Source of the DNA: a virus
Length of the DNA stretch: 64,000 nt
IMG/VR virus record: IMGVR_UViG_3300037307_000543
Span: 3,138-67,137 of that record
Strand: one strand, 5' to 3'
The number at the start of each line of letters is the position of its first letter. Within the stretch, counting starts at the first letter, position 1. The notes beneath the pieces are model-generated. The model was not told the DNA's origin. It saw only the letters and a program-made list of their open reading frames with translations, and did no database searches. A program made the translations under genes and the position numbers. Shown piece after piece: positions 786 through 20,700 of this stretch.

Positions 786-1319
786 TTACGCGGACACCCA
801 GGTTATCGCAAGCTCAGTTGCGTTTGCCGGGAAGCCACGATAGAGCTTCCCAAGGATCAGGATCGCTGAAAAAGTGGCATTCCCACCGGCCGCAACTGCA
901 CGAAGGCTGATGTATCGCTGAATGACCGCGGCGTTTGAGCTTGTCACCACGCGAGCATAGGACTCGTCGAACACGTGGCCGAAGTCAAACTCCGCCATAT
1001 AGAGCCCTGCCGCGCTGATAGCTGCCAACGAGAAAGCAGCGTTGCTGTTCGCGTCGCCGTTCGAGTTGGTCAGAGCCGCATCGTCATCCCGAAGAGAAAG
1101 GGTCAGTGTGCCAGCCGTAAGTCCAGACACGTCTGCCACAATTACCCCTTTCGTGGGTTTGATGAATGAGCTGCTGGAATCAAGCCACGAATCAATGCTC
1201 GCACCAAGTTGGGCGGTGTTGTAGCTGTTGATCGTGCTGCCAGCAGTAAGAGTATTAGCAGGAATGAGCCGTCGAATGCTCAGACCGCTCAAGAGTTCAT
1301 GTCTTCCGTCCATTCCCAT
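786..1319 (-). CDS. Putative capsid decoration/minor head protein
   Basis: Small, beta-rich, Ala/Ser/Thr-rich ORF immediately downstream of the major capsid gene; call is by position only. Confidence 0.5.
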   Translation of the reverse strand: MGMDGRHELLSGLSIRRLIPANTLTAGSTINSYNTAQLGASIDSWLDSSSSFIKPTKGVIVADVSGLTAGTLTLSLRDDDAALTNSNGDANSNAAFSLAAISAAGLYMAEFDFGHVFDESYARVVTSSNAAVIQRYISLRAVAAGGNATFSAILILGKLYRGFPANATELAITWVSA

Positions 1320-1332
1320 CGTAACACCTCAC

Positions 1333-2667
1333 TTAGGACATATTCGGATCTGCGGTTGACTGGAGCACTACGAACGCCTTCTCCTGCTCGCAGATTCCAC
1401 CAACACGCGCCGAGGCGCGGAAAGCGGTCATGTTCTGCAAGAAGTAAACGTGTCGGCTCATTTCCACGGAGATCGTCTTGCGCTCTCCAATGAAATAATG
1501 TTTCCAGTCGCCAAGAATCACGTCGCCAGTCGTGCCGAGATCACTCGTGCGGTAGTCCGACATCACGATAGGAATGCCTGCGGCGAATCCGGCAACGCCT
1601 TCGCCAAAGTTATTGTACCCGTAACCTACGTCGATGACGGGTCGCCCGTTTTCGTCAACTTCCTTGCGGAGGTTGTTGAAAACCGCCTTCTTCATAAACC
1701 ACACCGCGTTCGCATCGAACATGGGCGGCAATAGACTGTGCATGTTGAGACAGTCGCGCCATCCTACCCGGTTCGCGCTGATGCGGTCACAGGTGATAAT
1801 GTTGGGAGTATTCAACAGGCCCAGCGGCTGTGAGCCGCCAAGACCGGTGATGAACGACTTGTCGGTGCCATACCAGTACGCTCCCTGGAAGAGCTGTACA
1901 AGCAAGTTGCCGATGTTGATCGCACTGTCAGCAAGAAGCTGATCAGTAATCGGGGTCGATGCAGAGACCTCGTAGCACTTCAGGGTAAGGAACTCGAACT
2001 CCGCCGTGGTGTTCGGCTTTACCCCGCCTTCAGAGGTCCACCGAAGCTCCACGTTACCGAAGAAGTTTTCGCTTCCCTGAGTAAGGTCCTGCTTGAGTTT
2101 AGGCCACTGAATCTCGTCAGTAGCCATAGGCCACACCTGAGCACGCGGCCATACGATGGTCCCCGGAGGAGCGAACTGGAGCATCGCATAGCGGATATCT
2201 TCAGGGACAAAGAGGCCCGCAGAGCTGTCGTCCGCCGACCGCATCGCGGTCGTCATGTCGGTGAGCGTATCCTTCGTGACAATCTGAACGCTATCGCCCT
2301 TTGTCACGAAACGGATTGTCTGACCAGAACGCGCCGCGCCGCGAAGTTTCGCCGCAAACTCGATCATCGGCTCCGAAGCGGTCTCGAAAAATCCTGACTG
2401 ACGCCGCAGCCCCTTCGTGCTGATGTTGTACATCCCAGCATTGACGATAGCTCCCTCGGGAAGCCGATACTGGTCCTCTCCAACCTGCTGGAGAGTACCG
2501 TCGTCAACGACCCCTTTGACACTATGAATCGTTTGAGGAACCGCCTTCTGAAGCTCGGTGATCTTGGTGTTGATGTCCTCAAGCATCCCTTTGGTCTTGA
2601 TCTCAACCTGATCACCGACCGTCTTAGCGAGCATTTCCTCGAACTTTTTCTTGGTAACCTCGTCCAT
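1333..2667 (-). CDS. HK97-fold major capsid protein with N-terminal delta (scaffold) domain
   Basis: AGLFVPEDI, WTSEGGVKP, QPLGLLN, ILGDWKHYFIGER, FRASARVGG motifs; about 130-aa N-terminal extension ending FVTK-G/IVTK-D. Confidence 0.93.
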   Translation of the reverse strand: MDEVTKKKFEEMLAKTVGDQVEIKTKGMLEDINTKITELQKAVPQTIHSVKGVVDDGTLQQVGEDQYRLPEGAIVNAGMYNISTKGLRRQSGFFETASEPMIEFAAKLRGAARSGQTIRFVTKGDSVQIVTKDTLTDMTTAMRSADDSSAGLFVPEDIRYAMLQFAPPGTIVWPRAQVWPMATDEIQWPKLKQDLTQGSENFFGNVELRWTSEGGVKPNTTAEFEFLTLKCYEVSASTPITDQLLADSAINIGNLLVQLFQGAYWYGTDKSFITGLGGSQPLGLLNTPNIITCDRISANRVGWRDCLNMHSLLPPMFDANAVWFMKKAVFNNLRKEVDENGRPVIDVGYGYNNFGEGVAGFAAGIPIVMSDYRTSDLGTTGDVILGDWKHYFIGERKTISVEMSRHVYFLQNMTAFRASARVGGICEQEKAFVVLQSTADPNMS

Positions 2668-2686
2668 TTTGTACCTCGCAACTATG

Positions 2687-4444
2687 TTATGGGCTCGAAG
2701 GCCCGATTTGGTCCAACTGCTCGATCAAGGGCCTTACTGCCTCAGAAGCAGCCTCAAAGCCCTTCTCGACCATGGGCTTAATGTCATCTTCGGTTAGGTC
2801 AGCAAGAAAACCGAGTCCTTTACCGTAGATGCCCTCATTCTTCTTATGCTCTATCCACTCGACGAGTTCATCGTCGGGAATTTCATCAAGGACTTCCTGA
2901 ACAAGCTGCACAGGACTCTTCTCGACGATCTCCCTCTTTTTCATCTGCTTCTTTACCCAGGTTTTGATCTGATCCGAATCCCACGAATCAGAATCAAACT
3001 CACAGGAAACAAGCTTCTGACAAGTAGTACAGAAGGCTCCATCGATACCCGTATATTCCTTAAACGTCAAATTTACGACGTTATGGTTGTCATGGTCTCC
3101 ATGATCCAGAAGGACAAAGTGCTTGTACGTTTCTTCTTCCTCTTCAGGCTCCTCCTCCTCTGTTTCCTCCGCTTCCTCTGGAGCTTGGCTCTTGAAAGGA
3201 CATTTCTCTTCCTGGCAAGCTTCGATTTCTTCAGGCGTCACTTCCTGATCACAATAAATGCAATATCGAAGCTCCTCTTCAGGTTCCTCTTCAGGTTCCT
3301 CTTCAGAAGCCATTTCATCAGAAATCTCCTCCGGCTCTTCTTCCTCCTCCGGAGCCTCCTCATCAATTTCTTCTTCACTAACTTCCTCTTCCGGAATCTC
3401 TTCTCCTTCGGGCTCCTCCTCGTATTCTTCTTCAGGAGCCTCTTCCTCGTACTCTTCCTCGGGAGCTTCCTCTTGTGGAGCTGTTCCGTTTGCCGCAGCT
3501 TCTCGCTGAGCAACAGAAGCCTCTCTCTGCGCCACAGCAGCCTCTCTTTGAGCTACTTCGACTTCCCTTTGGCGCAACCCTTCATCCGGTATTGCAGTCT
3601 CCATTGGTGCCTCCTCTGTAGCTGGCTGCTGCATCATTTCCATGAGTTGCTCTAAGTCCTGATCTCCAGTCTCCGGCGGAACTTCGCCCTCTGTTTCGGC
3701 CCCAGGTTCTTGAGAGTCAGGAACTGGAGGAACTTCGGGACCTCCAGCCACGTCTCCTTCAGCGACAGGAGTCTGAGAGACTCCTTCAGGGCCGCTCATC
3801 ATGGACATATCGGTCGGAGTATAATCGGTCATCCAGAGCGCATTCGGATCTTCTCCCTCTTCAAGCTTAATCGGAACACCTATATCGGCAGTATTCATCG
3901 TAGTTGTACGATTGATCCTACCCGTAAGCTGGCTTTCGATTGCCTTGATCTCAAGACCGGGATAGATTCCCTTTTTGGCTACAAGGTTGTGAACCCAAAG
4001 TATCTTGAGAAGACGATTCAGTGAGTCTTCGGTAACGGCAAGTTCAAACTGAGCGGCTTGATCACCGCTTCTCTTTCTCTGAACCTGAGCTTCTGCGGCC
4101 TCCGTAGCAATTGCTATTCCCTGAATCACCGATTGAGCAACGGTGTTGAGTTTTCCGATAAGCTCAAGTTTTCGCTCCTGATCGGTTTCCGCTTGAAGCT
4201 GATTTGCCGCATTGACGTAATCAATGATGATTTTCTTCGTGGCTTCTTTGCCTTGACTGTACCATTGGCTTGCAGCGGGCCAATACATCGCCCCCTGTTG
4301 AGCATTCGGCGTAGAGACGGTTGTCGCTACAGTTGACGGCTCGCCAGTAGGAGAGTTGGTTGTACTGTAAGGAATCCCAATGCCATAGCCGCTGTCTTTC
4401 GTTACGATTTTCTTAGCGGCTTTCTTCTTGGTTTTCTTCTTCAT
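2687..4444 (-). CDS. Highly acidic head-module protein (internal/scaffold-like)
   Basis: Long Glu/Pro low-complexity tract, QREAAVA repeats and a Cys4 module; lies between the protease and capsid genes. Confidence 0.6.
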   Translation of the reverse strand: MKKKTKKKAAKKIVTKDSGYGIGIPYSTTNSPTGEPSTVATTVSTPNAQQGAMYWPAASQWYSQGKEATKKIIIDYVNAANQLQAETDQERKLELIGKLNTVAQSVIQGIAIATEAAEAQVQRKRSGDQAAQFELAVTEDSLNRLLKILWVHNLVAKKGIYPGLEIKAIESQLTGRINRTTTMNTADIGVPIKLEEGEDPNALWMTDYTPTDMSMMSGPEGVSQTPVAEGDVAGGPEVPPVPDSQEPGAETEGEVPPETGDQDLEQLMEMMQQPATEEAPMETAIPDEGLRQREVEVAQREAAVAQREASVAQREAAANGTAPQEEAPEEEYEEEAPEEEYEEEPEGEEIPEEEVSEEEIDEEAPEEEEEPEEISDEMASEEEPEEEPEEELRYCIYCDQEVTPEEIEACQEEKCPFKSQAPEEAEETEEEEPEEEEETYKHFVLLDHGDHDNHNVVNLTFKEYTGIDGAFCTTCQKLVSCEFDSDSWDSDQIKTWVKKQMKKREIVEKSPVQLVQEVLDEIPDDELVEWIEHKKNEGIYGKGLGFLADLTEDDIKPMVEKGFEAASEAVRPLIEQLDQIGPSSP

Positions 4445-4782
4445 CGGGGTTCCTCCTCTTTGTTCTTCTTATCTTCCAATTCGGGTTCCCCTACAATCTT
4501 GTCCAAATACGTATATGGGCAATCCGGGTCTTGACACTGAGCGATCCTTTCTTCAGTAGCCTTTCTCTTGCATTTCGGACAAATACTTCCGATTTGCTCT
4601 TTGGAGAACAGGCCCGCGGACCTATCGTTCCCGGCGCTCATGTATCCAGAAGTCGTTGATGTGTCAATGGATTTTTCTTCAACATTAACAGAGTCGCCTT
4701 TCATCCATATTGGTGCGAACAGCCAAAAATCTGGAACCAACGAAACAAACGGTTTATCTTTTACAGCATCAGAAAAACTCAT
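4441..4782 (-). CDS. Small Cys4 zinc-ribbon-like protein
   Basis: Likely start at ATG 4782 (ATGA overlap with the upstream stop); CPKC...CQDPDCPY. Confidence 0.6.
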   Translation of the reverse strand: MSFSDAVKDKPFVSLVPDFWLFAPIWMKGDSVNVEEKSIDTSTTSGYMSAGNDRSAGLFSKEQIGSICPKCKRKATEERIAQCQDPDCPYTYLDKIVGEPELEDKKNKEEEPR

Positions 4783-7700
4783 AACTTTATTCCCCTTTCT
4801 GATAAAACAGAACACCATTCAGATTGGCTTGCTAACCGATAAATATCCCTTGAATTTTTTATGCCTTCAACAGCAAAGACCTCTTCTGCCGGTATTCCGT
4901 TAAAAATTTGGCCAAAAAGTCCAGGTAGCGTTATCAATTCAAATTCTGCAACTTCTCCGTTGTCTTCTTTAGTCGTAATTACTATTCTTTTTTGAATAAA
5001 TCCTTTCTGATTTTCAACCACCCTAACATAATCATCCGATAATTTCCCAAATTGGCCTTCAAGTTGTGGAAATCGAGACATTCCAAATTCACCATAATCA
5101 AAGTCTACTACTTTAACGTCGGAAATTATCCCACTACTTTTCGTATCAATCCCAGTCGAAGGATGTATATATCTGACCGAAAACTTCTTGCCCTTTAACT
5201 CTAAACCTGCTTTAACAAAATCGGCCTCTGTTTTCTTAAGGATTTGCCTTGCGCCTGGAGTATTGAGCAGGGTCAATGCGTGACCCCACTCGTGCATAAG
5301 GAGTTCTTTTGGTCCCCCCATAGAATCAATTACCTTTACGGCTTCTGGAAAATTATAATTAACCAAATTTATATTAAGGGTGTTTTTATGACCAATAAAC
5401 GCAATTTGATTTCCAAGCGCTGAATCAAGACTCCCTCCATAATCCACTTCGTCTCTTATCACGATTTTTACTGGGCCTGGACTTTCTAAATGGCCAAATT
5501 GCCTCATAAGGTCTTTTTGAAATCCCAATGGATTGTTTATATAATCTATCACTTTTGCTTTTTCCGGAAAACGCCTTCTATATGTTTTGATATTGAAATT
5601 CTTAATTTCATTAAATACTTTAATATCAAGAATAGATTGTGCAGTAGTGGTGGCATTTTTTCCAATTGCACTTCCAGACAGTACACCAATCGCAATTTTT
5701 TGGGCTTTTGATGTATTTCCTCCTGCTCTCGCGAATATATTCGAGTTCCTCAATATCTTATAGGCCCCAACAGATAAAGCTACTCCCCCAATAACGACCA
5801 CTCCCCCTACTATTTTCTTCGTCTTATCAGACATTATAACATCAGACGCAACACCTTCCTGTACGCTATTCTTGTCTCTGAATTTTCCATCCCGGTGTCT
5901 CGGGTGTTCAGATTCAACAAATTCCTCTTTAGACATTTCCTTCTTTACAATATCTTCTTCTCCAGGCCCATTTTTCACTAATTTAACTTGATTCCTCAAT
6001 GCGGAATAGACATCGTTCAAAACATCCAATACCGCCTCAAATCTCGTATGCCCAGGAAGAGCGTTTTCTATCGCGATCTTGCAAGCATCAGAGCAATCAA
6101 CCAAGTCGTCTATAAACACCTCGGCCATTGCGGTAGCGAGATCGTCAGCAGACGGAGCACGCCCCTGCAAAGGCTTCTCTTCTTCGTTCATCCCCTTTGT
6201 TATAAATTCAACAAATCCCTTCTTTGTTCCCTCCCTTATTTGTGCGTCGTACTCCCCGTACCACTCATCGTCCCCTCGTTTCGTTTCCTGCTTTTTGATT
6301 TCTTCCTGTAAAATTTTACCAGCTTCCGCTAGATTTTCTATGTCTTTTTTATGCTTTGGGTTTTTGATATATTCGACAAGGGCTTGAGCGGTCACTTGAT
6401 GAAGTTTCTTATCGTCCTTCATCAAATCTAAAAGTATTGCAGTCACTCTTGGATCATGAGCCTTAAAACCCCTTCTTGCAAATTCTTCTTGTAATGCTGC
6501 AAGCGCAAGGTTTGGAAGATATCTTTCTATAGTTGCCAAAAGAGATCTATAAAGCGGAACCGCTCCTTCCATTTCCCTACGAAGATGTTCGCCAACCAAC
6601 TTTGAAACAAGTCTCTCTTGAATATCCTGCTGGAATCCTTGTGCCGTATATGCTTCTGCTCTTCTTCTTTCTTTTTCCGCCAAAGCTCTTTCATACTTCG
6701 TCCATTCCGCGAGGTTTGGCTTTTCCTGCTTCTCCGCCTTTCCTTCCTCTTTCCGAAGAGCAGTCGATATCGCCTCTTTTTCTTTTTTCGATGACGTAAC
6801 TTCTTTCACGAAATTCATAATATCTTTGTGAAAATAAAACGCAGTTCCAGCAGCTCCCGTAGTAGCCCCAATTCCTGCCCAAGCCCTCACACTAAATGGG
6901 GGGATCACTTTCTCCATAAAGAAGTCTCCCAATGCTCCCCAATCGGAAGGAATTCGATCAGGTTTGTTCGGATCAAGTCTTCCGAGAGCCTTATCATACT
7001 CGTTTATTTCGTCTGGAGTATATGGAGTATAAATATAGTCTGGAATGATACCGTGCTTCCTCGTAAACTCTAAGTCTCCATTGCTTTTCCTTATTACAAT
7101 GCCATGACCCTCAAGCCAAGCGTTGGTTTTCGCCTCTATAGCTTTTGCAGTAACAAGTTTTTTGTTCTTCAACATCTCTGGAGTAACATCGTTCGAGATC
7201 TCAACCGCGTGTCTTTCCGCCTTCGTAATCGTATCCGCAAGGTCAGGCTTCAGAACGATTCGCCTTCCTCTCCATTCAAAAGGAAGCAATGGATCAGTAG
7301 ATTCCTTCGGAACAAGTTCAAGAATCTTCCTTTGTAGTTTTCCATCTTTGTTCCAATACGCTCTTTCCCACGCAGAAGTCAAAAGATCCTCAACCTGAAC
7401 TTTTCCGTTTCTTCCAACAAATACTATTCCAGTGTCTCCATCAAGAGAACCTTGCCTTGGCCTCCAATTCATCAAATCTTGTTTCACTTTGGTATTGACA
7501 AATGCCCCTTTACCAGGACCATAAATCGTTCCCTCAAGACCATATCCTCTCAATGTAGGCCCAAGACGATAGGCTCTTATTGCCTTTCCTCCAGTCTTTC
7601 CTTTCAGTTTCGCAACCGCACTTGCTATCCATCTATTAAGAAAATTAACCTGTTTCGCATCAATAGTGCCCCAACTCGTAAACGGACCAATTTTCGCAGA

Positions 7701-11294: not shown

Positions 11295-12323
11295 TTAATC
11301 CGAACTCCACTTAAGACCAGATCTAAGATATCTTGCGAGTTCTGCCGCCCTTGTAAGCTCCTCTTTCAAAACCTTATCCTTTATTGGTCTCTTCAGTCTG
11401 TCTTCAAGAATATCCAATGATTTTGATGTATTCAAAAGATCCTTTCTTTTTTGAAGAGGAAGAAGACCCGTTTTGCCCATATTCTTCACCCTTTGAGAAA
11501 GCATCAAAGCCATATCCTTTACGGCAGGACCTGCGGCTTTCTGGATGATTTGAGAAGAGGAAAGACGTTTTTTCCTCCATTGAGTGGGATCAAAATAAGA
11601 AATGTCCCGCTCTGAATCTCTCTTGGCCTTCCTCGGACTATTCTGTTTGGAAAACAACAAGTCACGAGCCTCTCGTTCCGCTTTTACAATCTCTGTTGGA
11701 ATACGTTCTTGATCCAGCGCCTCTCCAAGGCCATGATAAGACGCAACATCATCGTGCAACTTTTTCATTTTTTTTGCAGCCTTTGTATACCCCCTGGAGA
11801 TGGTAAAGCCTCCTTTCTCAACAATCATCGAATCGTCAAGTTCCTTGTATCGTTGACGCAGTTTCCGACTAATAACGTCAGAAATAGACCCAACCCTTTT
11901 TTCCTTTTCTGGAGAGAGTCCGAAACTGGAAAGCGGATTATTAAATTGAGAAAACTTGTCACCAAGAGTTTCTTTCATTCTGTCAACCGCGCTGATGATA
12001 ATCCGCTTGTCCTTGGGAGAGGTTTTTTTGTATTGTTTCAAAAACTCTCCTGCACCAGAAAGAGGAGAAGCGCTCGCTCTTTTCGCCTCTTGCAAAACCT
12101 CTTTGATCGCTCGTGGAGCTTTCTCAACAATCATCGAATCGTCAAGTTCTTTGGCCTCAATTCCCCACTCCTGCCCTCGCTCGGCCAGCACCTCATCCAG
12201 AGTCTTCCTGGCAGGCTCAACGGAGAATTCCTTTTCAATCAGTTCTTCAGGCTCCATGTTCTTGCACGTTCCGCCCTGAAGATCCATCGTCACAAAGCTT
12301 GCTTTTCCTCTTTTGTCAGACAT
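11295..12323 (-). CDS. Basic head-module protein with two KELDDSMIVEK repeats
   Basis: Likely start at ATG 12323 (AGGAGG upstream); 29-bp identical DNA repeat at 11815-11843 and 12121-12149. Confidence 0.7.
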   Translation of the reverse strand: MSDKRGKASFVTMDLQGGTCKNMEPEELIEKEFSVEPARKTLDEVLAERGQEWGIEAKELDDSMIVEKAPRAIKEVLQEAKRASASPLSGAGEFLKQYKKTSPKDKRIIISAVDRMKETLGDKFSQFNNPLSSFGLSPEKEKRVGSISDVISRKLRQRYKELDDSMIVEKGGFTISRGYTKAAKKMKKLHDDVASYHGLGEALDQERIPTEIVKAEREARDLLFSKQNSPRKAKRDSERDISYFDPTQWRKKRLSSSQIIQKAAGPAVKDMALMLSQRVKNMGKTGLLPLQKRKDLLNTSKSLDILEDRLKRPIKDKVLKEELTRAAELARYLRSGLKWSSD

Positions 12324-12334
12324 TGGAAGCCCTC

Positions 12335-14740
12335 CTAAGATTTCTCCGCCAGGACCGGTCTTCTCACGCACCGACAGTTCGGATGAAGCGTTGCCGATTC
12401 TTTGTACACCTTTCCGGTTCGATAATCCTTCAAAATGGTCCCGTGATTCGCTCTACAATTCTTCTCCGGATTTGAGTCATTACATACCCGCTCATCAAGC
12501 GCAGTCCACAAGACCGCTTTCTCGACAACGATTCTTCCCGCGTCCTTGTTTACTTTCTCAAACGACGCATCAGATCCCACATCCAATGCGCCGGAAAGCT
12601 CAGTTCGAGCAATCATAGACGCCCGCGCGGACCCCATATCAGCAAATTTCTCGCGAATGAGGTCCGCGACATCTTCTACATCCATGCCTTCCTTGAGCCC
12701 CGTCTTAATGATCTTCGTGATGGTTTTCTTAATCGTCCTACTTCTCAGCGTTGCCGACTGGTCGAGAAATCTACCGGCAGCATTGTATGTGGCCTCGTCC
12801 GGAGAAATGCCAAGCATTCCGCCAAGACCTTTCTCCACCAATCTCAGCCCGAAATTAAATCCAATGTCAACCGCCTTCATGATAAACAGACGAGACGATT
12901 CTTTATATTCGTATTCAAACTCATTCAAATCAAAGACTTCATCAGGTTCCTTAGTAACAATACCATTCGCGTTTTTCTTGACAATTTCTGATATCTGTAG
13001 TCCTTTGCCAACGAGAAACTTCTCAGCGACGGGTTTATAGATATTTTCAATAGCCTCAATCGCAGGAAGCATCTCTTCATAGCATTTGTAAACCACTCTC
13101 TCGTCTTCAGGCAGAATCTCTTCAATATATTCATCAATCCCTCTCGTAATAAGCTTCATCAATCCATCTTGAGAAGAAAGCTTTCCAAGATTCTGTGTTG
13201 CAGTCTGGATAGTTGGATTTGCTCGCATAAAAGCGGTCAGTCCTCCACGATTGCCACGAGCCGCATTGATAAGCGTAGAGAGATTGGGCGAGTTTCCCCT
13301 CATGGATTCTTTCAAGAGCCCCATAAGGTCGCCCTCCGGCCTCCCTCCAGTCATTCCAAACTGTCCTTGAAGCGCTGGGGCGCCTCCGCCCATCATGCCA
13401 CCTTGTGCGGCCATAGATGCACCGGCAGCAGCCGCAATGCTTTCATCCCATACCTTGTCCGCCTCTGAGTTGATTCCTCGAATCGGCTGTCCATTCATCC
13501 AAGGAACGTAGCACAGCGGAGAATCGAACGGCTTTTGGCCCCTTCTCAAGCGTATTTCATTGATTGTGGTCAATCCCATAGTCAATTCGCCCTGGTTTTT
13601 AGCAAGTTCCCATTCGTCATCTTTCGGATGAGCCGACTCATAGGTAAAAATAAGGCTCTTCGTGCTCTTAAACTGAGATCTGAGCTGAAGATTTATGCTT
13701 CCGGCAAGCACCTTCAATCGAGGAAGAACCGAATGGTCCACAAAGGTCTTCTCGGCCGCAATATCGGACGCCTTAGATGAAGCCCCCATAAGCCCAAGCA
13801 TAACCTCTGGAACCCCATACGCGGCCAAGATATTATCTTTGGTCCATTCACTCAAAGCCATGAACTCAAAGTCCTTCGCGGACATTCCCACTTGCTCGAT
13901 CTTTGCTTCTCCGGTAAGGACCGCGGGCTTAAACTGTCGCCCTGGCCCGCGATGTTTTGCGTTCCACCCTTCCGAAAGCCGTTCGGCTTGAGCCTTTGGA
14001 ATGGGGTGAGCAGGAACAATCACGAAATCCGGCCTTGCGTTATTCTGAAAAAAATCCTTCTCATAGACCTGAAGATAGAGATCCAAATCAGTGACGTGCG
14101 CCAGGGCTTGAATGGGGGTAAAGGGAAGCACCGGATTCATCGGATTCGGATAGTGGAAATAGACAACATCTTCGTACGGATACTCTCTTCTAAGCTGCTT
14201 CTGATAAGGAGATGCGAACACGAACTTATCAATGAGCCGATCAGTAGAGTTTCCCATCATGATCGTTACCAATTCATTCGGATTCATCAAATAAAGCTCT
14301 CTCGGGGCACCGATTGCATCTCTGATGATAAGCCAAAAAGCACATCCACACAGATCAAGATACATCTGCGTAGCTGCGAAAAACTGCTCTCCGTCAAAGT
14401 ACTTATTTGGCCTTCTCAGAAGCTCCAGGAGGGGGTGATGAAGAATTCGGTCAAACTCTTCATCGTTCGGCTGGCCAACCTCTTTGTACAGATAGAAGGG
14501 AACAGAGGCTACTTTGTTTTTGATCAGATTCACACAGGGATAAACCCAAGTACGATACTTGAGAAGTGCCTGTTGAGCATTAACTGTAGGGTTCAGAGTT
14601 CCAGGATTGGCATTGGAAACAGTAGAAAGCGTTCTCGAATTAAGCTCTTCCCACCCTTTTATTACCACGACGCCTGGATACTCATCAAAAAAATCTCGGT
14701 CTTTGGAAAAGGCGCTTCTCAGGCGATCAAGGAATCCCAT
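12335..14740 (-). CDS. HK97-family portal protein fused to a MuF/SPP1-gp7-like head morphogenesis domain
   Basis: Portal motifs VYPCVNLIKNKVASVP, DVVYFHYPNP, KDFEFMAL, ILAAYGVP; C-terminal ARTELSGA, WTALDERVC, HPNCRC. Confidence 0.9.
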   Translation of the reverse strand: MGFLDRLRSAFSKDRDFFDEYPGVVVIKGWEELNSRTLSTVSNANPGTLNPTVNAQQALLKYRTWVYPCVNLIKNKVASVPFYLYKEVGQPNDEEFDRILHHPLLELLRRPNKYFDGEQFFAATQMYLDLCGCAFWLIIRDAIGAPRELYLMNPNELVTIMMGNSTDRLIDKFVFASPYQKQLRREYPYEDVVYFHYPNPMNPVLPFTPIQALAHVTDLDLYLQVYEKDFFQNNARPDFVIVPAHPIPKAQAERLSEGWNAKHRGPGRQFKPAVLTGEAKIEQVGMSAKDFEFMALSEWTKDNILAAYGVPEVMLGLMGASSKASDIAAEKTFVDHSVLPRLKVLAGSINLQLRSQFKSTKSLIFTYESAHPKDDEWELAKNQGELTMGLTTINEIRLRRGQKPFDSPLCYVPWMNGQPIRGINSEADKVWDESIAAAAGASMAAQGGMMGGGAPALQGQFGMTGGRPEGDLMGLLKESMRGNSPNLSTLINAARGNRGGLTAFMRANPTIQTATQNLGKLSSQDGLMKLITRGIDEYIEEILPEDERVVYKCYEEMLPAIEAIENIYKPVAEKFLVGKGLQISEIVKKNANGIVTKEPDEVFDLNEFEYEYKESSRLFIMKAVDIGFNFGLRLVEKGLGGMLGISPDEATYNAAGRFLDQSATLRSRTIKKTITKIIKTGLKEGMDVEDVADLIREKFADMGSARASMIARTELSGALDVGSDASFEKVNKDAGRIVVEKAVLWTALDERVCNDSNPEKNCRANHGTILKDYRTGKVYKESATLHPNCRCVRRPVLAEKS

Positions 14741-15240
14741 TACTTGTTCCCAAACTCGTCTTTAAGAATCTTCTCAAGGTTGTCATTGTCGTCATCAAGC
14801 TTAAAAGCTGCCTTCTGGAGCAACTCTTCACGCTTCTTGTTCTTTTCGACAATCTTCGTCATCCATGAATCCTGACGAACCAAGCTATTCACAATCTTCT
14901 CTCTAAACGAAGAAAACCCAACAGCAAGATGCCCCACTTCCTCGTCTGGAGGGAGTACTTCGGGCTCTTTCGGACCAAAATCTTCTTCATGAGACACGAC
15001 AGTTTCTCCTTTAATCGTTTTCTCAGACGTTTTCTCGCCCTCTTCGGTGAGTTCGGTCACTACGATGTCTTGAATCTCTTTACAGTGAACAATGACCCCT
15101 CCGGATGGAGTATCGAACGACTCCACTCCGGATTTAGACTCCCGTATCCGTGCTAGAGCGGCTTCGACTTCGCTTTGCTCGCTCATCAGCAAGGACACGG
15201 GAGTATGATTCACGTACTTGAAGGTGAGTCTAAAACTCAC
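14740..15240 (-). CDS. Hypothetical head-module protein
   Basis: Translationally coupled to the portal gene; contains IVEK. Confidence 0.65.
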   Translation of the reverse strand: MSFRLTFKYVNHTPVSLLMSEQSEVEAALARIRESKSGVESFDTPSGGVIVHCKEIQDIVVTELTEEGEKTSEKTIKGETVVSHEEDFGPKEPEVLPPDEEVGHLAVGFSSFREKIVNSLVRQDSWMTKIVEKNKKREELLQKAAFKLDDDNDNLEKILKDEFGNK

Positions 15241-16437
15241 TTACTTCTTGACCTTTCCTTTTGGAACTCTCACGACCGAGGAGCACTTGAAGACGAAATC
15301 CTCTTCGTCAGCACCTTTCTCCTTACGAGTTGCTCTATAGACACCATAGCCGCCAGCGCCAAGAGCAGGAACCGCAGCAATGGCAAGACTCTTCTTGGGA
15401 TTATCCTTAATCCACTGAATTGCGGCTTCAGTTGCAGTTGGAGTGATCTTCCCAAACTGCTTCGAGAGTGCGCGACGAGTCTTGTAGGCAGGGATTCTCC
15501 CACTCTCTCTGCCCCTCAGCCACTCGGACTTCTTCGGAGCAGCGGCCTGAGCATCGCTGATTTCTCGGCTTTTGGTCCCGTAAATGTCGCCCGCAGCGGC
15601 CTTCTCAACGAAATCGGCAAAGCCTTTCTCCTTCCGTCTACTCAAAGCATAGACTCCGCCGCCGATAAGACCAGCCGCACCAAGCCCAGCCGCGCCCGTT
15701 CTGTACGGATGAGCAGCAGCATAACGACCAACAGCTTTTCCGCCTTCGGCCACTTTGCTCGCCGCAGCACGCACCTTCGGCTCGACATAACCCCGTGCCT
15801 TTTGGTACGCGCTTACAATACCCTCTTTGGCCTCACGAGTTTTTCTGCCGACAGGAGTCTCGCCAGGAGTCACTTTGACATCCCCGCCCTCCATCGAAAA
15901 TGTCCGACGAGTAAGATCCTCCTTGACAGGATTCTTCATCTTTTCGACCAAGAGGCTGTCATCAACCTCTTTTGCGACCATCCACTTCGAGTCAGACTCG
16001 CGAAGAGCAAGATGATCCGCTACCGACTTCTCGATAGTGTCGAACGAGCCGTCGATATCGTAGCGAGAAAACGAGTTCTGATCAACCACGAAGCCCTTCT
16101 CAACCATCTGGTTGTAGGACTCCCAACCCTTCTCGATCTCGTTTTTCTCTCCACCGAGATTCTGTGCGTCGGAAACGTAGGTTGCCTCAATGTCCTTTTT
16201 CGCCTCACCAGCTACTTCGGACAGATCATCCGCCATTGTGGTGCCGGGACCACCGGGCTTGTTCTCTCCCGGCTTGATGTTCGCACCACTTCTGTCAACT
16301 CCGGCAGAATCAACTCCGGCAGAATCAGTCACGTCCCGACCAGGATCAGCGGGAAGCGTATCCTCTGCATGACCATCGCCCTTGAAGACACTGAATTCCT
16401 CAAGGAACCCCTTCTGTACCAAGAATTCGTTGCTCAT
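15241..16437 (-). CDS. Head-module polyprotein-like protein with repeated (V/I)EK-G motifs and glycine-rich hydrophobic segments
   Basis: LVQKG, IEKG, MVEKG, KEVDDSLLVEK, EKGFADFVEKA; GAAGLGAAGLIGGG and AVPALGAGGYG segments. Confidence 0.7.
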   Translation of the reverse strand: MSNEFLVQKGFLEEFSVFKGDGHAEDTLPADPGRDVTDSAGVDSAGVDRSGANIKPGENKPGGPGTTMADDLSEVAGEAKKDIEATYVSDAQNLGGEKNEIEKGWESYNQMVEKGFVVDQNSFSRYDIDGSFDTIEKSVADHLALRESDSKWMVAKEVDDSLLVEKMKNPVKEDLTRRTFSMEGGDVKVTPGETPVGRKTREAKEGIVSAYQKARGYVEPKVRAAASKVAEGGKAVGRYAAAHPYRTGAAGLGAAGLIGGGVYALSRRKEKGFADFVEKAAAGDIYGTKSREISDAQAAAPKKSEWLRGRESGRIPAYKTRRALSKQFGKITPTATEAAIQWIKDNPKKSLAIAAVPALGAGGYGVYRATRKEKGADEEDFVFKCSSVVRVPKGKVKK

Positions 16438-16526
16438 TGTCTTTACCTCGCTTTTTCCTTCAAGCAGCCTCTATCGGACCCTCTCCTGAAGTCTCATGCC
16501 TGCCTTAACGGCCCAGCACGATGTTC

Positions 16527-18812
16527 CTAATTCTTCTTTCTCGATCTTTTGCCCATAGCTTCAATTCCGCCATAGTAATAAAGCTTCTTCAAGCCCTTTC
16601 CCACTGGATATTCGTCGTCATCTCCACTCAAACCATAATACAGACCCGCTCCACCAAGAAGAGCCGCACCGCCAAGACCATATTTCATGCCCCTAGAAAG
16701 ATCCTCTTGCGGCTTAGTAGCTTTAGGCAAACTCGGCTTAACCACCGAAGGCGGCTCAAAACGTTCCGCAGAACGAGACGGCGAGGGCGCTGACCTAACA
16801 GGAGAAGTCGGCTTATTCGCCTCTCTCAACTTTCTCGCGTGTTCCGATTGGCGAAAAGCAATCTCTTCTGCTTCATCAAAAACTCCACCGCGGCCTACCC
16901 GAGTTCCCGCCGCACCAGTGCCGGTAACGGCTTCGGCCCCAACAGGAATCTTTGGTTTTCTAGGCTTAAAAATATTCGTCACTTTTCTCAATGCTTGAGG
17001 CCACTTCTCAACAAGTTCATTGGCTACTGTTTCATAACGCGAAACACCCTTAATCATAATAAAGTCTTCACCTTCTATCGGCCTAATGAAGTTTGCCGCT
17101 TCATTCCGAACATATACCTTCCTGTGACCAACAGATCCGGCCCGCTCTCTAGTTCCAGCCGCTCGTTTATAAAGCTCCTGTACCGGTTCCCACTCTCGCG
17201 CTTCCTTTAAGCTCTTTTTATCTACCTTTTTGATGTTAAGTCGCTTTAGCCCTCTCCCACCTAAACCTCCCAAAAGAGCCCCGCTTGCTCCACCCGCCAA
17301 CGCTCCTCCAATAGCCCGAACAGCTTTTCTATCCTGTTCCTTTGTCGAAACATATCCACCGGCTCCTCCCAAGGCGGCCCCTACTCCAGCACCAATTAAG
17401 GCTCCTTTGATCCCCTTTTCCACTATTATAGAATCATCAAGTTCTTTCGCCTTCGTCGGCTTCAGATTCAACTTCGCGTTTCCGTGTCCGGTAGCAGTCT
17501 CCAATATATTCCTCTTAGCAAGAGCGATCCTCTTCGTCTTTGCCTCTGGCATATACGCTTTTTCCTTTTTCTTGTTCTGCTCTTTTATCGCAGCCTTCGG
17601 GGCTCCTTTCGCAGCTCCTTTGGTAAGACCCGTAGCAATTGTTTCAAATCCTATACCCCCCGAGGCCGAGCCTCTCCCGGCTTCCCCAAGGGAACTTCTT
17701 ACTACCTCAAATAGGATTCCTTTCTCTACGATCAAGGAATCATCAAGCTCTTTGACTACAAATTCCTTCTTCTTCAAATACGGCTGTCGCCCCTTTTTAT
17801 ATGCAGCAAGCGCATCGTCAAGTTTCTTTCTATACGCTGCAAGCTCTTCAATATTCGGTTTAGGAATCCTTTTTCCTGACTCATAAAGAGAATCAGCTAT
17901 CAGTTCTTTCGCCGTTTTATCAAAAATTCCTTTTTCTACAATGAGAGAGTCATCGAGTTCTTTAACAACCTGAAGTTTTCTATTCAAGGCCGCTTCTGCC
18001 GCATCATTCGCTCTCCTCATCTTCTCAACATTGGTCAAGGTCCTTTTAATGTTAGCCAATCTTTTAGAGCTATCGTCAAGAGTGGCATTAATCTCTCTCA
18101 TATGAGCAGCATAGCGATCAGCATAGTTAACGACTTCCTTTGCTAAATTAGCCTGTGCCCTTCCGGCACTTGAAATTACCGATCCAGCGCCTCCCACTGA
18201 TGCTCCCAAAGATCCGCCTATAAGAGCGCCCATTGCGGCCCTTTTCAAACGATGTTCTTTTTGTTTCGCGGTAGCCGCTGCGGTTCCAGCCCCACCAACA
18301 GCACCAATTCCGGCACCAATCGATGCAGCTTTTACAGCTCCTTTCTCGACGATGAGAGAGTCATCGAGTTCTTTGGCAACAGCCGCATCTCTCTCCAAAT
18401 ACTTCTTCCCAAGATGTCCAGCCGCGATGCCGCCTCCAACCATGAGTCCATATTTGCCCAATTTTTTCCAATTGATAGGTTTATGTCCAAGGGCGCGTTC
18501 ATAATGTTCTACTGAAGCCTTTGACACGAAGCTTTCTCCTAAAGTGGATTCAGAAACTCGTGTCCCTAAACTAGAATCATTCTCCCCCTTTACTTCAAAA
18601 CCATCCTCTCCTATATCCTTATATACAGGACGCACCCCAAGATCATCCGCGACCTCCTGAAGGCGCGCTTCAAGACTCGTCTCTCTCTTCGCTGGATCGC
18701 GAGTCGAACCTTCGAGAATAGACTCTTTATCAAACTCTTGAACAACAAGTGAAGGCTTCTGATCTACCTTCACCTCGTCCATTACGGCAAATGTGCTTTT
18801 TTCTCGCGGCAT
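16527..18812 (-). CDS. Head-module polyprotein with four KELDDS(L/I)IVEKG repeats and glycine-zipper segments
   Basis: Repeats at about 17413-17447, 17718-17753, 17928-17963 and 18339-18374. Confidence 0.75.
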   Translation of the reverse strand: MPREKSTFAVMDEVKVDQKPSLVVQEFDKESILEGSTRDPAKRETSLEARLQEVADDLGVRPVYKDIGEDGFEVKGENDSSLGTRVSESTLGESFVSKASVEHYERALGHKPINWKKLGKYGLMVGGGIAAGHLGKKYLERDAAVAKELDDSLIVEKGAVKAASIGAGIGAVGGAGTAAATAKQKEHRLKRAAMGALIGGSLGASVGGAGSVISSAGRAQANLAKEVVNYADRYAAHMREINATLDDSSKRLANIKRTLTNVEKMRRANDAAEAALNRKLQVVKELDDSLIVEKGIFDKTAKELIADSLYESGKRIPKPNIEELAAYRKKLDDALAAYKKGRQPYLKKKEFVVKELDDSLIVEKGILFEVVRSSLGEAGRGSASGGIGFETIATGLTKGAAKGAPKAAIKEQNKKKEKAYMPEAKTKRIALAKRNILETATGHGNAKLNLKPTKAKELDDSIIVEKGIKGALIGAGVGAALGGAGGYVSTKEQDRKAVRAIGGALAGGASGALLGGLGGRGLKRLNIKKVDKKSLKEAREWEPVQELYKRAAGTRERAGSVGHRKVYVRNEAANFIRPIEGEDFIMIKGVSRYETVANELVEKWPQALRKVTNIFKPRKPKIPVGAEAVTGTGAAGTRVGRGGVFDEAEEIAFRQSEHARKLREANKPTSPVRSAPSPSRSAERFEPPSVVKPSLPKATKPQEDLSRGMKYGLGGAALLGGAGLYYGLSGDDDEYPVGKGLKKLYYYGGIEAMGKRSRKKN

Positions 18813-18866
18813 AGGACTACCTCTAAGGTAGCCCCTTATAGGAAGGATCGAATCAGGTCAAGTGTT

Positions 18867-19160
18867 TTATTCTACGACTTCGACCGGTGTGCCAAGAGTT
18901 TCAGAAACTACTTCTTCAGTGGCCTGCTTCACGGTCTTCTCTATGAACTCATCGAAGGCGAGAAGCTCATCAAGCAACTCTTCTGTTGCGTCTTCTGGCG
19001 CTTTCTTAATCACTGAATACGCAGAAGCAAAGGCTCGTCCTTCGTCTTGATGCTTCTTGTAAGCGCTATTCCAAACATGAACCCACATTCGAGCTTTTTT
19101 TGCTGGAAGTTTCTGGACATTCTCCGGAAGAGAGGAAATATCATCAGGGTTATATGGCAT
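18867..19160 (-). CDS. ChaB-family protein
   Basis: MPYNPDDISSLPENVQKLP..ARMWVHVWNSAY..DEGRAFASAYSVIK fits the ChaB pattern. Confidence 0.8.
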   Translation of the reverse strand: MPYNPDDISSLPENVQKLPAKKARMWVHVWNSAYKKHQDEGRAFASAYSVIKKAPEDATEELLDELLAFDEFIEKTVKQATEEVVSETLGTPVEVVE

Positions 19161-20025: not shown

Positions 20026-20029
20026 GCTC

Positions 20030-20688: not shown

Positions 20689-20700
20689 TTACTAATCTTT

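What the first reader, a model, noticed from the sequence alone, without database searches (positions are those of the whole stretch)
1333..19160. Head module built from polyproteins punctuated by a shared Lys-ending motif: a candidate protease-processed capsid cargo system
Seen: about 12 kb of non-canonical genes fill the space between ChaB and the capsid gene. Nearly all carry a hydrophobic-(V/I)-(E/T/G/Q)-K followed by G/A/D/S motif: KELDDSxIVEKG four times (761 aa), KELDDSMIVEK twice (343 aa), LVQKG/MVEKG/FVEKA (398 aa), FVTKG/FIGKG/FVGKE/FITKG (2171 aa), IVTKD/IVEKS/MVEKG (585 aa) and IVTKE (portal-MuF junction). The same motif (FVTK123-G, IVTK132-D) marks the end of the capsid delta domain. 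Established: the HK97 gp4 protease removes the delta domain by cutting after a Lys, and T4 gp21 and phiKZ gp175 cut many internal head proteins at a shared motif. Inference: these ORFs are packaged into proheads and cut into many peptides and enzymes for delivery at infection.
Basis: partly seen in the sequence, partly recalled or inferred. Interest (0 to 1): 0.9.

Follow-up and report, generated by a model that had tools for sequence, protein, structure and literature searches.

The report
Lysine-tagged phage head cargo polyproteins
An uncultured phage marks its capsid protein, its head protease and about 13 kb of unusual head genes with one short lysine-ending tag; the tag most likely tells the HK97-type head protease where to cut, which would extend a trick known from T4 and giant phages to a different protease family.

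Summary
The strict motif occurs 24 times in the head-module ORFs, against 1.5 expected from shuffling and 4 in 13.8 kaa of other ORFs.

The motif is also enriched in three related uncultured phages. It sits at conserved positions:
- an invariant Lys 12-14 residues before the capsid N-arm in 38 capsids;
- invariant Lys residues at both ends of the protease domain;
- the joints between shuffled modules of the 2171-aa protein;
- the last residue of the ORF in relatives where the protease is a separate gene.

The protease is an S78 (HK97 gp4-type) domain at the N-terminus of the 2171-aa ORF. Its catalytic His and Ser align with those of HK97. Mature HK97 and T5 capsid proteins both start right after a Lys.

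Best reading (about 0.6): these are prohead-protease cleavage sites that cut head-packaged polyproteins into basic glycine-zipper peptides and enzyme-like modules. One relative carries an Acb1 anti-CBASS module. The tag may also serve as a capsid address.

Cleavage, packaging and delivery are all inferred; nothing here measures them. I class it as a new variant of a known kind (T4/phiKZ-style processed internal proteins; polyvalent proteins). Unchecked notes from this scan describe similar Lys-tagged head polyproteins on other genomes.

The parts
18867..19160 (-). 97-aa ChaB-like ORF, upstream border of the module
   Evidence: Pfam ChaB E=1e-4, 23.2 bits, below the gathering score of 27. It has no strict motif.
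16527..18812 (-). 761-aa polyprotein with four KELDDS(L/I)IVEK|G tags (K157, K294, K364, K466). Predicted pieces: one acidic N-terminal piece, then four basic (pI 9-10) pieces. Three of the basic pieces are glycine-zipper-rich.
   Evidence: No Pfam or PHROG hit. The homologue P0002 keeps the tags at about 32% identity over about a third of the protein. The copies differ by 3-7 synonymous codons.
15241..16437 (-). 398-aa polyprotein with sites K9, K114, K166 (KEVDDSLLVEK) and K279 (EKGFADFVEK|A). N-terminal pieces are acidic and C-terminal pieces are basic and hydrophobic.
   Evidence: Homologous to the L001 647-aa ORF (40% over the N-terminus), which repeats YNEGIVQK|GFQIEEK.
14740..15240 (-). 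166-aa ORF of unknown role, conserved in L001
   Evidence: BLAST to the L001 178-aa ORF. It has only a loose site (KIVEK|N).
12335..14740 (-). 801-aa portal-MuF fusion. Candidate sites: VVIK28|G near the N-terminus, and FLVGK579|G and IVTK597|E in the portal-MuF linker.
   Evidence: Pfam Phage_portal residues 66-399 (194.8 bits). Phage_Mu_F residues 673-792 scores 29.5 bits, just under the gathering score of 29.6, and MuF/head-morphogenesis PHROGs support it. V595, T596 and K597 are invariant with L001.
11295..12371 (-). 358-aa (343 aa from the first ATG) polyprotein with KELDDSMIVEK at K84 and K186, plus IIQK278|A
   Evidence: L001 and L007 homologues carry KELDDSMIVEK|S and KELDDDLEVK|G.
4779..11294 (-). 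2171-aa protease-polyprotein. Protease (about residues 6-214), block 215-400, module B 401-933, module C 934-1785, module D 1786-2171.
   Evidence: The modules are shuffled among 19 protease-fused related proteins from a library clustered at 50% identity.
10797..11234 (-). Peptidase_S78 (HK97 gp4-type prohead serine protease) domain, residues 21-166, with H62 and S110
   Evidence: Pfam PF04586, 35.9 bits against a gathering score of 21. H62 and S110 are invariant and align with HK97 gp4 H65 and S114.
11277..11291 (-). FTTK5|P: candidate N-terminal propeptide site of the protease
   Evidence: Lys in 17 of 19 aligned sequences (the window plus 18 clade proteins) and Arg in the other 2. HK97 gp4 begins MPEIVK|T at the aligned place.
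10650..10664 (-). FVTK214|G: junction at the C-terminal end of the protease domain
   Evidence: K214-G215 is invariant in alignment A3. In L001 the separate protease ORF ends a few residues further on, in ...LSALIGK-stop.
10092..10106 (-). FIGK400|G: junction before module B and its EHPR header
   Evidence: The L007 437-aa protease ORF aligns to residues 11-399 and ends ...GFIGSIEEK-stop.
8493..8507 (-). FVGK933|E: junction between module B and module C
   Evidence: BLAST blocks to relatives start at residues 917-930. Module B is absent from L001, L006 and L007.
6192..6206 (-). FITK1700|G: junction inside the end of module C
   Evidence: The L006 block starts at residue 1696. Strict motif.
5937..5951 (-). 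IVKK1785|E: junction before module D and its EHPR header
   Evidence: K lies 12 residues before the His of EHPR in 35 of 50 headers of the clade.
5280..5294 (-). HEWGH (residues 2001-2005) in module D
   Evidence: H, E and H are invariant in W, L006 and L008. The fold is not settled.
4441..4818 (-). 125-aa ORF with VEEK48|S, then DRSAGLF 16 residues later, then a zinc ribbon. It copies the capsid's cut-site-plus-N-arm layout.
   Evidence: In L001 and L008 the same domain is fused to the C-terminus of the module-C polyprotein, after VDMK|G or IYTK|S.
2687..4444 (-). 585-aa very acidic (net -88) scaffold-position protein with a zinc ribbon. Sites K16 and K509 are invariant; K561 is not.
   Evidence: Alignment A7 of five orthologues. 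Charges. No Pfam or PHROG hit.
2272..2667 (-). Capsid delta (scaffolding) domain, residues 1-132, ending in IVTK132
   Evidence: K132 is invariant in 38 capsids, 12-14 residues before DDSSAGLFVPED. HK97 reads TFNK103|SLGSDADSAG.
1336..2271 (-). Predicted mature HK97-fold major capsid protein, residues 133-444
   Evidence: Pfam Phage_capsid residues 206-436, 124 bits. A profile of the family matches HK97-family capsids in the PDB.
786..1319 (-). 177-aa conserved ORF downstream of the capsid gene, without the motif (outside the finding's range)
   Evidence: 47-61% identical in L001, L006 and L007. No strict site.

Best explanation
The tag is hydrophobic-(V/I)-x-Lys followed by a small or acidic residue. 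It is often extended to KELDDSxIVEK|G or K-G-(F/L)-S-x-(F/L)-h-x-K|E. I read it as the recognition and cutting site of the phage's own HK97-type (Peptidase_S78) prohead protease.

That protease is made as the N-terminal domain of a 2171-residue modular polyprotein.

Proposed sequence of events:
1. The portal-MuF fusion, the protease-polyprotein, three basic polyproteins (761, 398 and 358 aa) and an acidic 585-aa protein co-assemble with the capsid protein into the prohead.
2. The protease cuts itself free at K5 and K214.
3. It removes the capsid delta domain at K132.
4. It trims the 585-aa protein at K16 and K509.
5. It separates the modules of the 2171-aa protein at K400, K933, K1700 and K1785.
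6. It dices the three polyproteins into an acidic leader plus basic fragments of 70-300 residues, many of them glycine-zipper-rich.
7. The acidic pieces leave. The basic peptides and the enzyme-like modules stay with the DNA, and at least some enter the host.

The tag may also work as a capsid address.

Shown: the anatomy, enrichment, conservation and placement of the tag, and the protease family. Inferred: cutting, packaging, the fate of the fragments and delivery.
For: 1. Enrichment. The window has 24 strict sites against 1.5 +/- 1.2 in shuffles and 4 in 13.8 kaa of non-head ORFs. The pattern was defined on the window, yet it is also enriched in relatives: L001 14, L006 8 and L007 7, against about 1 expected. 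After any hydrophobic-hydrophobic-x-K core, the next residue is G/A/S/D/E in 62% of head cases and 28% of non-head cases, p=1.5e-12.

2. Selection on the peptide. The seven KELDDSxIVEK copies differ at 1-8 of 12 codons synonymously. P0002, the 761-aa homologue, comes from the same sample as the contig whose capsid is 79% identical. It keeps three tags at about 32% identity over about a third of the protein.

3. Capsid site. K132 is invariant in 38 capsids inside a variable stretch, 12-14 residues before the N-arm motif. HK97 is cut at K103/S104, five residues before DADSAG (PMC10275583). The PDB chain of mature T5 pb8 starts at A160, after K159, and the T5 protease is S78.

4. Protease. Pfam S78 above threshold. 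H62 and S110 align with HK97 H65 and S114. K5 and K214-G215 flank the domain and are conserved.

5. Joints.
- Homology blocks of the 2171-aa protein begin or end within about 30 residues of K400, K933, K1700 and K1785.
- Modules B and D come and go among 19 protease-fused proteins.
- 35 of 50 module headers have K|(E/A/K)M(S/T)xEEF.
- Separate protease ORFs of L001 and L007 end exactly on a tag Lys.

6. No HExxH occurs in the head ORFs of L001 or L007. S78 is therefore the only recognisable protease shared by all motif-bearing modules.

7. K16 and K509 of the 585-aa protein are invariant in five orthologues.

8. Cargo character. L008 carries an Acb1 anti-CBASS domain right after its protease (29.9 bits against a gathering score of 27). 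In the three polyproteins the first predicted fragment or fragments are acidic and the later ones basic, pI about 10. T4 and SPN3US are the precedent for this pattern (PMC7411985).
Against: - No experimental datum exists for this phage or any relative.
- The pattern was defined after looking at the head region. The loose version is only about 2-fold enriched.
- P4 to P2 vary between lineages. Many clade polyproteins have 0-1 strict hits.
- Some strict hits lie inside the folded MuF domain.
- The capsid site of L001 is AVAK|S, which does not fit the strict pattern.
- Conserved placement at joints and ends would also be expected of a docking peptide.
- The contig is incomplete, so virion composition cannot even be guessed from tail genes.
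- The window's own modules have no significant enzyme-family match.
Confidence: 0.6

Rival explanations
1. The tag is mainly a capsid-address (docking) peptide. It would bind the inner capsid surface or the delta domain and so load the proteins into proheads. It would work like the C-terminal tail of the HK97 protease, the T4 capsid-targeting sequence or encapsulin cargo-loading peptides, without being the cut site itself.
For: - In alignment A6 the HK97 protease ends ...KSFPSNLGK, aligned with L001's ...KGLSALIGK. The same K-G-(F/L)-S-x-(F/L)-h-x-K unit recurs at module joints.
- From memory (Duda et al. 2013, not readable here), the C-terminal part of HK97 gp4 is what gets it encapsidated.
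- In HK97 the end of the delta domain forms a strand that adds to the P-domain sheet (PMC10275583). The low-confidence capsid model puts RFVT and QIVT in strands.
- Many copies per protein would give multivalent binding.
Against: - A pure address needs neither an invariant Lys with a small residue after it, nor a place exactly at the delta/N-arm boundary of the capsid protein, which needs no address.
- It does not explain ORFs that end on the Lys, or the N-terminal propeptide-like sites (K5 of the protease, K16 of the 585-aa protein).
- The two roles do not exclude each other, and the dual reading is part of the best explanation.
Confidence: 0.15
2. The tags are cut, but by another protease: a module-encoded one (the HExxH domain or the papain-like lead in module B, as proposed for polyvalent proteins) or a host trypsin-like enzyme.
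For: - Iyer et al. 2017 propose autoprocessing of polyvalent proteins by their own zincin domains (PMC5512222).
- Module D has an invariant HExxH.
- Module B has weak Peptidase_C92 leads.
Against: - L001 (whole head module) and L007 (from the C-terminal part of the portal gene to the capsid gene) keep the tags but have no HExxH and no module B or D.
- The capsid site matches the known S78 habit of cutting after Lys.
- The zincin fold of module D is not established (Z at most 5.2).
Confidence: 0.07
3. The tags are neither cut nor docking sites. They would be structural or linker elements, for example short strands between modules, or a by-product of module shuffling.
For: - They sit at joints where recombination has exchanged modules.
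- The neighbouring EHPR..GKF header is a widespread joint motif in giant proteins that mostly lack the upstream Lys.
Against: - The synonymous differences show that the peptide, not the DNA, is kept.
- The same tag occurs in proteins that are not modular: the capsid, the 585-aa protein and the protease N-terminus.
- The Lys is invariant while neighbouring residues vary.
Confidence: 0.05

Closest known systems
HK97 gp4 protease with the gp5 delta domain (Peptidase_S78), and T5 pb11 with pb8
   Same: Same protease family, with the catalytic His and Ser aligned. Same capsid design: an N-terminal scaffolding domain removed just before the N-arm. In both model phages the mature capsid protein starts after a Lys (K103/S104 and K159/A160).
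   Different: In HK97 the documented substrates, from my memory, are the capsid protein and the protease itself. Here the same tag is spread over about 13 kb of extra head genes. The protease is also fused to a 2000-residue modular protein instead of being a protein of about 225 aa.
T4 gp21 with internal proteins IPI-III and Alt; phiKZ gp175 and SPN3US gp245 with their ejection proteins
   Same: One prohead protease cuts many head proteins at a shared short motif. Propeptides are removed and basic internal proteins stay and are ejected (PMC7411985; PMC5694885 and PMC10052503).
   Different: Those proteases are the T4 gp21 type (S77) and cut after Glu (T4 L/I-x-E; the phiKZ and SPN3US motif is from memory). 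Here the protease is S78 and the residue is Lys. The substrates here are multi-site polyproteins rather than single proteins with one propeptide.
Polyvalent proteins of phages and conjugative elements (Iyer et al. 2017, PMC5512222)
   Same: Giant multi-module proteins encoded next to portal and MuF genes, predicted to be packaged and injected, with shuffled modules and often a C-terminal HExxH domain.
   Different: That paper proposes self-processing by the protein's own metallopeptidase. Its text search found 'prohead' once and 'HK97' not at all. It does not mention the HPR string either.
Adenovirus core-protein precursors cut by the adenovirus protease (from memory)
   Same: Basic DNA-associated peptides are released inside the capsid from precursors at a shared short motif.
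   Different: An unrelated cysteine protease and an unrelated eukaryotic virus. It is an analogy only.

Membership tests
Peptidase_S78 (HK97 gp4-type prohead serine protease) | Profile match above the curated threshold | tested here: met
   PF04586, 35.9 bits against a gathering score of 21, residues 21-166 of the 2171-aa ORF.
Peptidase_S78 (HK97 gp4-type prohead serine protease) | Catalytic His and Ser conserved at the HK97 gp4 positions (H65, S114; that these are the catalytic residues is from memory) | tested here: met
   H62 and S110 are invariant in alignments A3 and A6, and they align with HK97 H65 and S114 and with T5.
Peptidase_S78 (HK97 gp4-type prohead serine protease) | Encoded between the portal and major capsid genes | tested here: met
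   Gene order is portal-MuF, 358-aa ORF, protease-polyprotein, 125-aa ORF, 585-aa ORF, capsid.
Peptidase_S78 (HK97 gp4-type prohead serine protease) | Removes the capsid delta domain by cutting before the N-arm | not testable with these tools
   Only the invariant K132 at the expected place is seen.
HK97-fold major capsid protein with an N-terminal delta domain | Phage_capsid profile match, plus an N-terminal extension of about 100-160 residues | tested here: met
   PF05065, 124 bits, residues 206-436, with about 130 residues ahead of the N-arm motif. The structural model is poor (pLDDT 57.6).
T4-type capsid-targeted internal proteins processed by gp21 | T4 gp21-type (S77) protease and cleavage after Glu in L/I-x-E | tested here: not met
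   The protease is S78 and the conserved residue is Lys. This works like that system but is not a member.
T4-type capsid-targeted internal proteins processed by gp21 | Proteins present in virions and ejected into the host | not testable with these tools
   There is no isolate and no proteome.
Polyvalent proteins (Iyer et al. 2017) | Several distinct effector domains in one polypeptide | tested here: inconclusive
   The window's modules have no significant family match. The relative L008 has Acb1 above threshold. Modules are shuffled among 19 protease-fused proteins.
Polyvalent proteins (Iyer et al. 2017) | Zincin-like metallopeptidase domain | tested here: inconclusive
   HExxH is invariant in three sequences. 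Foldseek gave no match. VIA-align gave Z of 3.7-5.1 to several zincin-like proteins and YbeY (an HExxH metal hydrolase), below the noise level stated by the tool.
Polyvalent proteins (Iyer et al. 2017) | Encoded with portal and MuF head genes | tested here: met
   A portal-MuF fusion lies one gene upstream.

The most novel reading that the evidence does not exclude
The tag is a combined address-and-cut label. It would be copied from the protease's own C-terminal tail and from the end of the capsid delta domain. Any module placed behind such a tag would then be carried into an HK97-type prohead by the protease fusion and released there. This would let the clade swap counter-defence enzymes (Acb1 in one relative) and load dozens of basic glycine-zipper peptides per particle. 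It would be a plug-and-play cargo system for the commonest capsid type, distinct from the T4 and phiKZ system.
Probability: 0.3. Interest if true: 0.8.

Novelty: new variant of a known kind. Interest (0 to 1): 0.62.

Why it matters
Protease-processed, head-packaged proteins are well documented for T4-type and giant phages. Both use a gp21-type protease that cuts after glutamate. HK97-type capsids with S78 proteases are far more common in nature, but their proteases are regarded (from my memory of the literature) as acting mainly on the capsid protein and on themselves.

If the reading holds:
- A whole clade of uncultured phages uses an S78 protease as carrier and cutter for large, rapidly changing cargo. 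At least 19 protease-polyprotein representatives exist in a library clustered at 50% identity.
- The Lys tag gives a simple rule for predicting mature virion components and injected effectors from sequence alone.
- The tag could be tried as a handle for loading foreign proteins into HK97-type shells.
- The glycine-zipper peptides and the widespread EHPR..GKF joint motif would become testable.

Tried and rejected
- **Complex prediction.** Protease residues 6-205 with residues 136-176 of the 761-aa ORF gave no verdict (score 0.00). This is neither support nor evidence against binding.
- **Capsid model.** The AlphaFold model is too poor (pLDDT 57.6) to place the N-arm. Only the rough helix-strand-strand layout before K132 was noted.
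- **Module D model.** pLDDT 61.3. Foldseek against the PDB gave nothing at E<=0.001. VIA-align gave Z at most 5.2, with several zincins and YbeY among unrelated rows. A zincin fold is not established.
- **Module B.** Atlas scores of 0.75-0.79 and Pfam Peptidase_C92 at E=0.14 are leads only.
- **Protease against the PDB.** No sequence match for the protease profile.
- **Searches for relatives.** The metagenome contig scan with the portal found two short contigs. The viral contig scan found one useful relative, L001. The phage collection has no capsid relative above 30% identity.
- **Missing DNA.** No DNA could be fetched for the two contigs of the closest relative.
- **Covariation of the cut residue with protease lineage.** This could not be tested. 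More distant capsids (32-45% identical to the window's) also keep a Lys before the N-arm.
- **Papers.** Duda et al. 2013 and Huet et al. 2016 could not be read.
- **Rejected: the 585-aa ORF as the protease.** It has no protease match. The protease is the N-terminus of the 2171-aa ORF.
- **Rejected: recent duplication or a DNA-level repeat as the origin of the tags**.

Full report
**What is there**

The window is 64 kb of a 67,871-bp contig with no terminal overlap, so the genome is probably incomplete. Essentially all genes are on the minus strand.

In the direction of transcription the head module reads as follows.

| Gene | Note |
|---|---|
| Terminase large-subunit fragment | PHROG match |
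| HNH endonuclease | PHROG match |
| 97-aa ORF | ChaB-like, below Pfam's threshold |
| 761-, 398- and 166-aa ORFs | no family match |
| 801-aa portal-MuF fusion | Pfam and PHROG |
| 358-aa ORF | no family match |
| 2171-aa ORF | S78 protease at the N-terminus |
| 125-aa ORF | no family match |
| 585-aa ORF | very acidic |
| 444-aa capsid protein | HK97-type |
| 177-aa ORF | conserved in relatives |

The protease is the N-terminal domain of the 2171-aa ORF. Pfam Peptidase_S78 matches residues 21-166 at 35.9 bits, against a gathering score of 21. H62 and S110 are invariant and align with H65 and S114 of HK97 gp4. The database gene call for this protein starts at Met41 (P0115). That start would remove the conserved DRDGE stretch, so the true start lies upstream.

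- *Window statistics.* The strict pattern [LIVMF][VI][ETGQ]K[GADSE] occurs 24 times in 5,906 residues of head ORFs. Shuffles give 1.5 +/- 1.2 (maximum 5 of 200). Other ORFs give 4 in 13,836 residues; Fisher p=1.4e-9.
- *Test on other genomes.* The pattern was chosen by looking at this region, so the fairer test is elsewhere. In three related uncultured phages the same fixed pattern gives 14, 8 and 7 hits in head ORFs, against about 1 expected, and 0-2 in the flanks. These are L001, L006 and L007, with portal 46-51% and capsid 57-64% identical to the window's.
- *Residue after the Lys.* After any hydrophobic-hydrophobic-x-K core, the next residue is G/A/S/D/E in 62% of head cases against 28% of non-head cases, p=1.5e-12.
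- *Selection on the peptide.* The seven KELDDSxIVEK copies differ from each other at 1-8 of 12 codons by synonymous changes. The peptide is under selection, not a DNA repeat.
- *Fast divergence around the tag.* P0002, the 761-aa homologue, comes from the same sample as the contig whose capsid is 79% identical. It is only about 32% identical over about a third of its length, yet keeps KELDDSLVVGKG, KELDDSLLVEK and KELSDSLIVEKG.

**Where the tags sit**

1. *Capsid.* In 38 capsid proteins at least 49% identical, K132 is invariant inside an otherwise variable stretch. It lies 12-14 residues before the conserved N-arm motif DDSSAGLFVPED and is followed by A/D/S/G/T. K123 lies in an insertion present only in some sequences.
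   - HK97 gp5 reads TFNK103|SLGSDADSAG, and its cleavage site is K103/S104 (PMC10275583).
   - The deposited mature T5 capsid chain is residues 160-458 of the precursor. Residue 159 is Lys, and the T5 protease is S78.
   - So the two characterised S78 systems I could check end the scaffold domain on a Lys. More distant capsids (32-45% identical to the window's) also keep a Lys there.
2. *Protease.* K214-G215 is invariant just after the protease domain. A hydrophobic-hydrophobic-x-K lies within the first 5-30 residues in 17 of 19 aligned sequences, with Arg in the other two. HK97 gp4 itself begins MPEIVK|T.
3. *ORF ends.* In L001 the protease is a separate 252-aa gene that ends ...KGLSALIGK-stop. 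In L007 it is a 437-aa gene that aligns to residues 11-399 of the window's protein and ends ...GFIGSIEEK-stop, at the place of FIGK400|G.
4. *Module joints.*
   - BLAST blocks between the 2171-aa protein and its relatives begin or end within about 30 residues of K400, K933, K1700 and K1785.
   - Module B (401-933) occurs only in some relatives, and so does module D (1786-2171). 19 protease-fused proteins from a library clustered at 50% identity show many combinations.
   - Each module starts, directly after the tag Lys, with (E/G/A)M(S/T)KEEFxExEHPRxxDGKF.
   - In 35 of 50 such headers in the clade, Lys stands 12 residues before the His. V/I is two places and I/F/L three places before that Lys.
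5. *Other orthologous sites.*
   - K16 and K509 of the 585-aa protein are invariant in five orthologues, although the N-terminal leader varies from 15 to 87 residues.
   - V595-T596-K597 in the portal-MuF linker is kept in L001.
   - The portal N-terminus has VVIK28|G, and L001 has IVQK|G nearby.

**Which protease**

L001 covers the whole head module, and L007 covers it from the C-terminal part of the portal gene to the capsid gene. Both carry the tags but have no HExxH anywhere in their head ORFs and lack modules B and D. The S78 enzyme is the only recognisable protease common to all tag-bearing genomes.

**What the products would be**

Cutting at the tags gives, for the 761-, 398- and 358-aa proteins, acidic N-terminal pieces (pI 4-5) followed by basic pieces of 70-295 residues (pI 9-10). 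Several of the basic pieces have repeated GxxxGxxx(G/A/S) glycine-zipper patterns. The 585-aa protein carries a net charge of -88.

This pairing resembles the T4 and SPN3US picture of acidic material that leaves and basic material that stays (PMC7411985). It is an inference only.

The window's large modules have no significant family match.
- Module D has an invariant HExxH but no established fold.
- Module B has only weak Peptidase_C92 leads.
- A relative (L008, a 120-kb contig) carries an Acb1 anti-CBASS phosphoesterase domain directly after its protease, at 29.9 bits against a gathering score of 27. This is the best sign that the modules are counter-defence cargo.
- A more distant relative (L009, capsid 41% identical) has a plain module of portal, protease-scaffold and capsid, with no cargo genes. 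The expansion is therefore a trait of one clade.

**Address as well as cut?**

HK97 gp4 ends ...KSFPSNLGK, aligned with L001's ...KGLSALIGK. The same K-G-(F/L)-S-x-(F/L)-h-x-K unit precedes many module headers. From memory, the C-terminal part of HK97 gp4 is what brings it into proheads (Duda et al. 2013, which I could not read).

In HK97 the end of the delta domain forms a strand on the P-domain sheet (PMC10275583). The tags may therefore also dock to the capsid interior. I treat this as compatible with cutting. As an exclusive alternative I give it about 0.15.

**Comparison with known systems**

The logic matches T4 gp21 with the internal proteins and Alt, and phiKZ and SPN3US with their ejection proteins. 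Here, however, the protease family (S78, not the gp21 type) and the residue (Lys, not Glu) differ. The substrates are multi-site polyproteins, and the protease is fused to one of them.

It also fits the idea of head-packaged polyvalent proteins (PMC5512222). That paper proposes self-processing by the protein's own metallopeptidase. Text searches of it found no mention of HK97 and one of 'prohead'.

My literature searches found no description of this arrangement. The library is incomplete, so this is not proof of novelty.

Unchecked notes of this scan describe similar Lys-tagged head polyproteins in other genomes. Those notes are leads, not support.

**Verdict**

A selected, head-restricted, Lys-ending tag at exactly the places where an S78 protease should act is well shown. 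Cutting, packaging and delivery remain inferred.
- Practical point: tryptic proteomics cannot see these ends, because trypsin also cuts after Lys. Other proteases, N-terminal labelling or intact-mass methods are needed.

Noticed in passing
window 10002-10136, 8403-8537, 5847-5981 (minus strand); also L001, L006, L007, L008: Each module starts with (W/F)-(D/E)-E-x-x-H-P-R-x-x-x-G-(K/R)-F. A profile of 13 such headers found 1187 proteins at E<=1e-3 among 1.84 billion representatives. Most are 1000-7300 aa long with 2-18 copies each (P0117: 7334 aa, 18 stretches). No Pfam model matched. This looks like a widespread, undescribed joint motif of giant phage or plasmid proteins.
   Followed up: partly
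window 4441-4818 (minus strand); L001:14661-17396 C-terminus; L008:5474-8164 C-terminus; L006:7878-8210: The 125-aa protein and its homologues repeat the capsid's layout. A tag Lys (VEEK|S, VDMK|G, IYTK|S, LIDK|T) is followed, 10-21 residues later, by an N-arm-like DxSAGLF(VPE), then by a CxxC...CP zinc ribbon. The domain is a separate gene in two phages and the C-terminus of a polyprotein in two others. It may mimic the capsid N-arm.
   Followed up: partly
L008:1695-2300 (contig JBFOMV010000222.1 of GCA_040961035.1): A relative's 1459-aa protease fusion carries an Acb1 (anti-CBASS 2H phosphoesterase) domain right after the protease. Pfam PF23474 scores 29.9 bits against a gathering score of 27.
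   Followed up: partly
window 10650-11294 (minus strand): The public gene call of the 2171-aa protein starts at Met41 (P0115, 2131 aa). That start would cut off the invariant D34-R35-D36-G37-E38 of the protease, so the real start is upstream, at or near the TTG at 11294.
   Followed up: yes
L011:3348-4022 (HK97 gp4): The HK97 protease itself begins MPEIVK|T and ends ...SFPSNLGK-stop. Both ends resemble the tag and align with the tags of this clade.
   Followed up: partly
window 19150-22335 (minus strand): A 355-aa ORF matches only the C-terminal part of large terminases (PHROG 2). An HNH endonuclease gene (291 aa) lies downstream of it, just ahead of the ChaB-like ORF. The terminase may be split or interrupted.
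   Followed up: no
L003:463-1416 (genome bases 463-1416, beyond the window); L006 and L007 12000-21000; L008 12000-21300: Downstream of the capsid gene, relatives carry long runs of glycosyltransferase, methyltransferase and sugar-modifying genes. This genome has a nucleotide-sugar epimerase at the contig end. Virion glycosylation is possible.
   Followed up: no
window 2687-4444 (minus strand): The 585-aa protein at the scaffold position has a net charge of -88, a conserved helical N-terminal domain, a zinc ribbon (CIYCD...C...CPF) and a conserved C-terminal domain. In L008 the acidic stretch is replaced by LDENGNP(I/V)Q repeats.
   Followed up: partly
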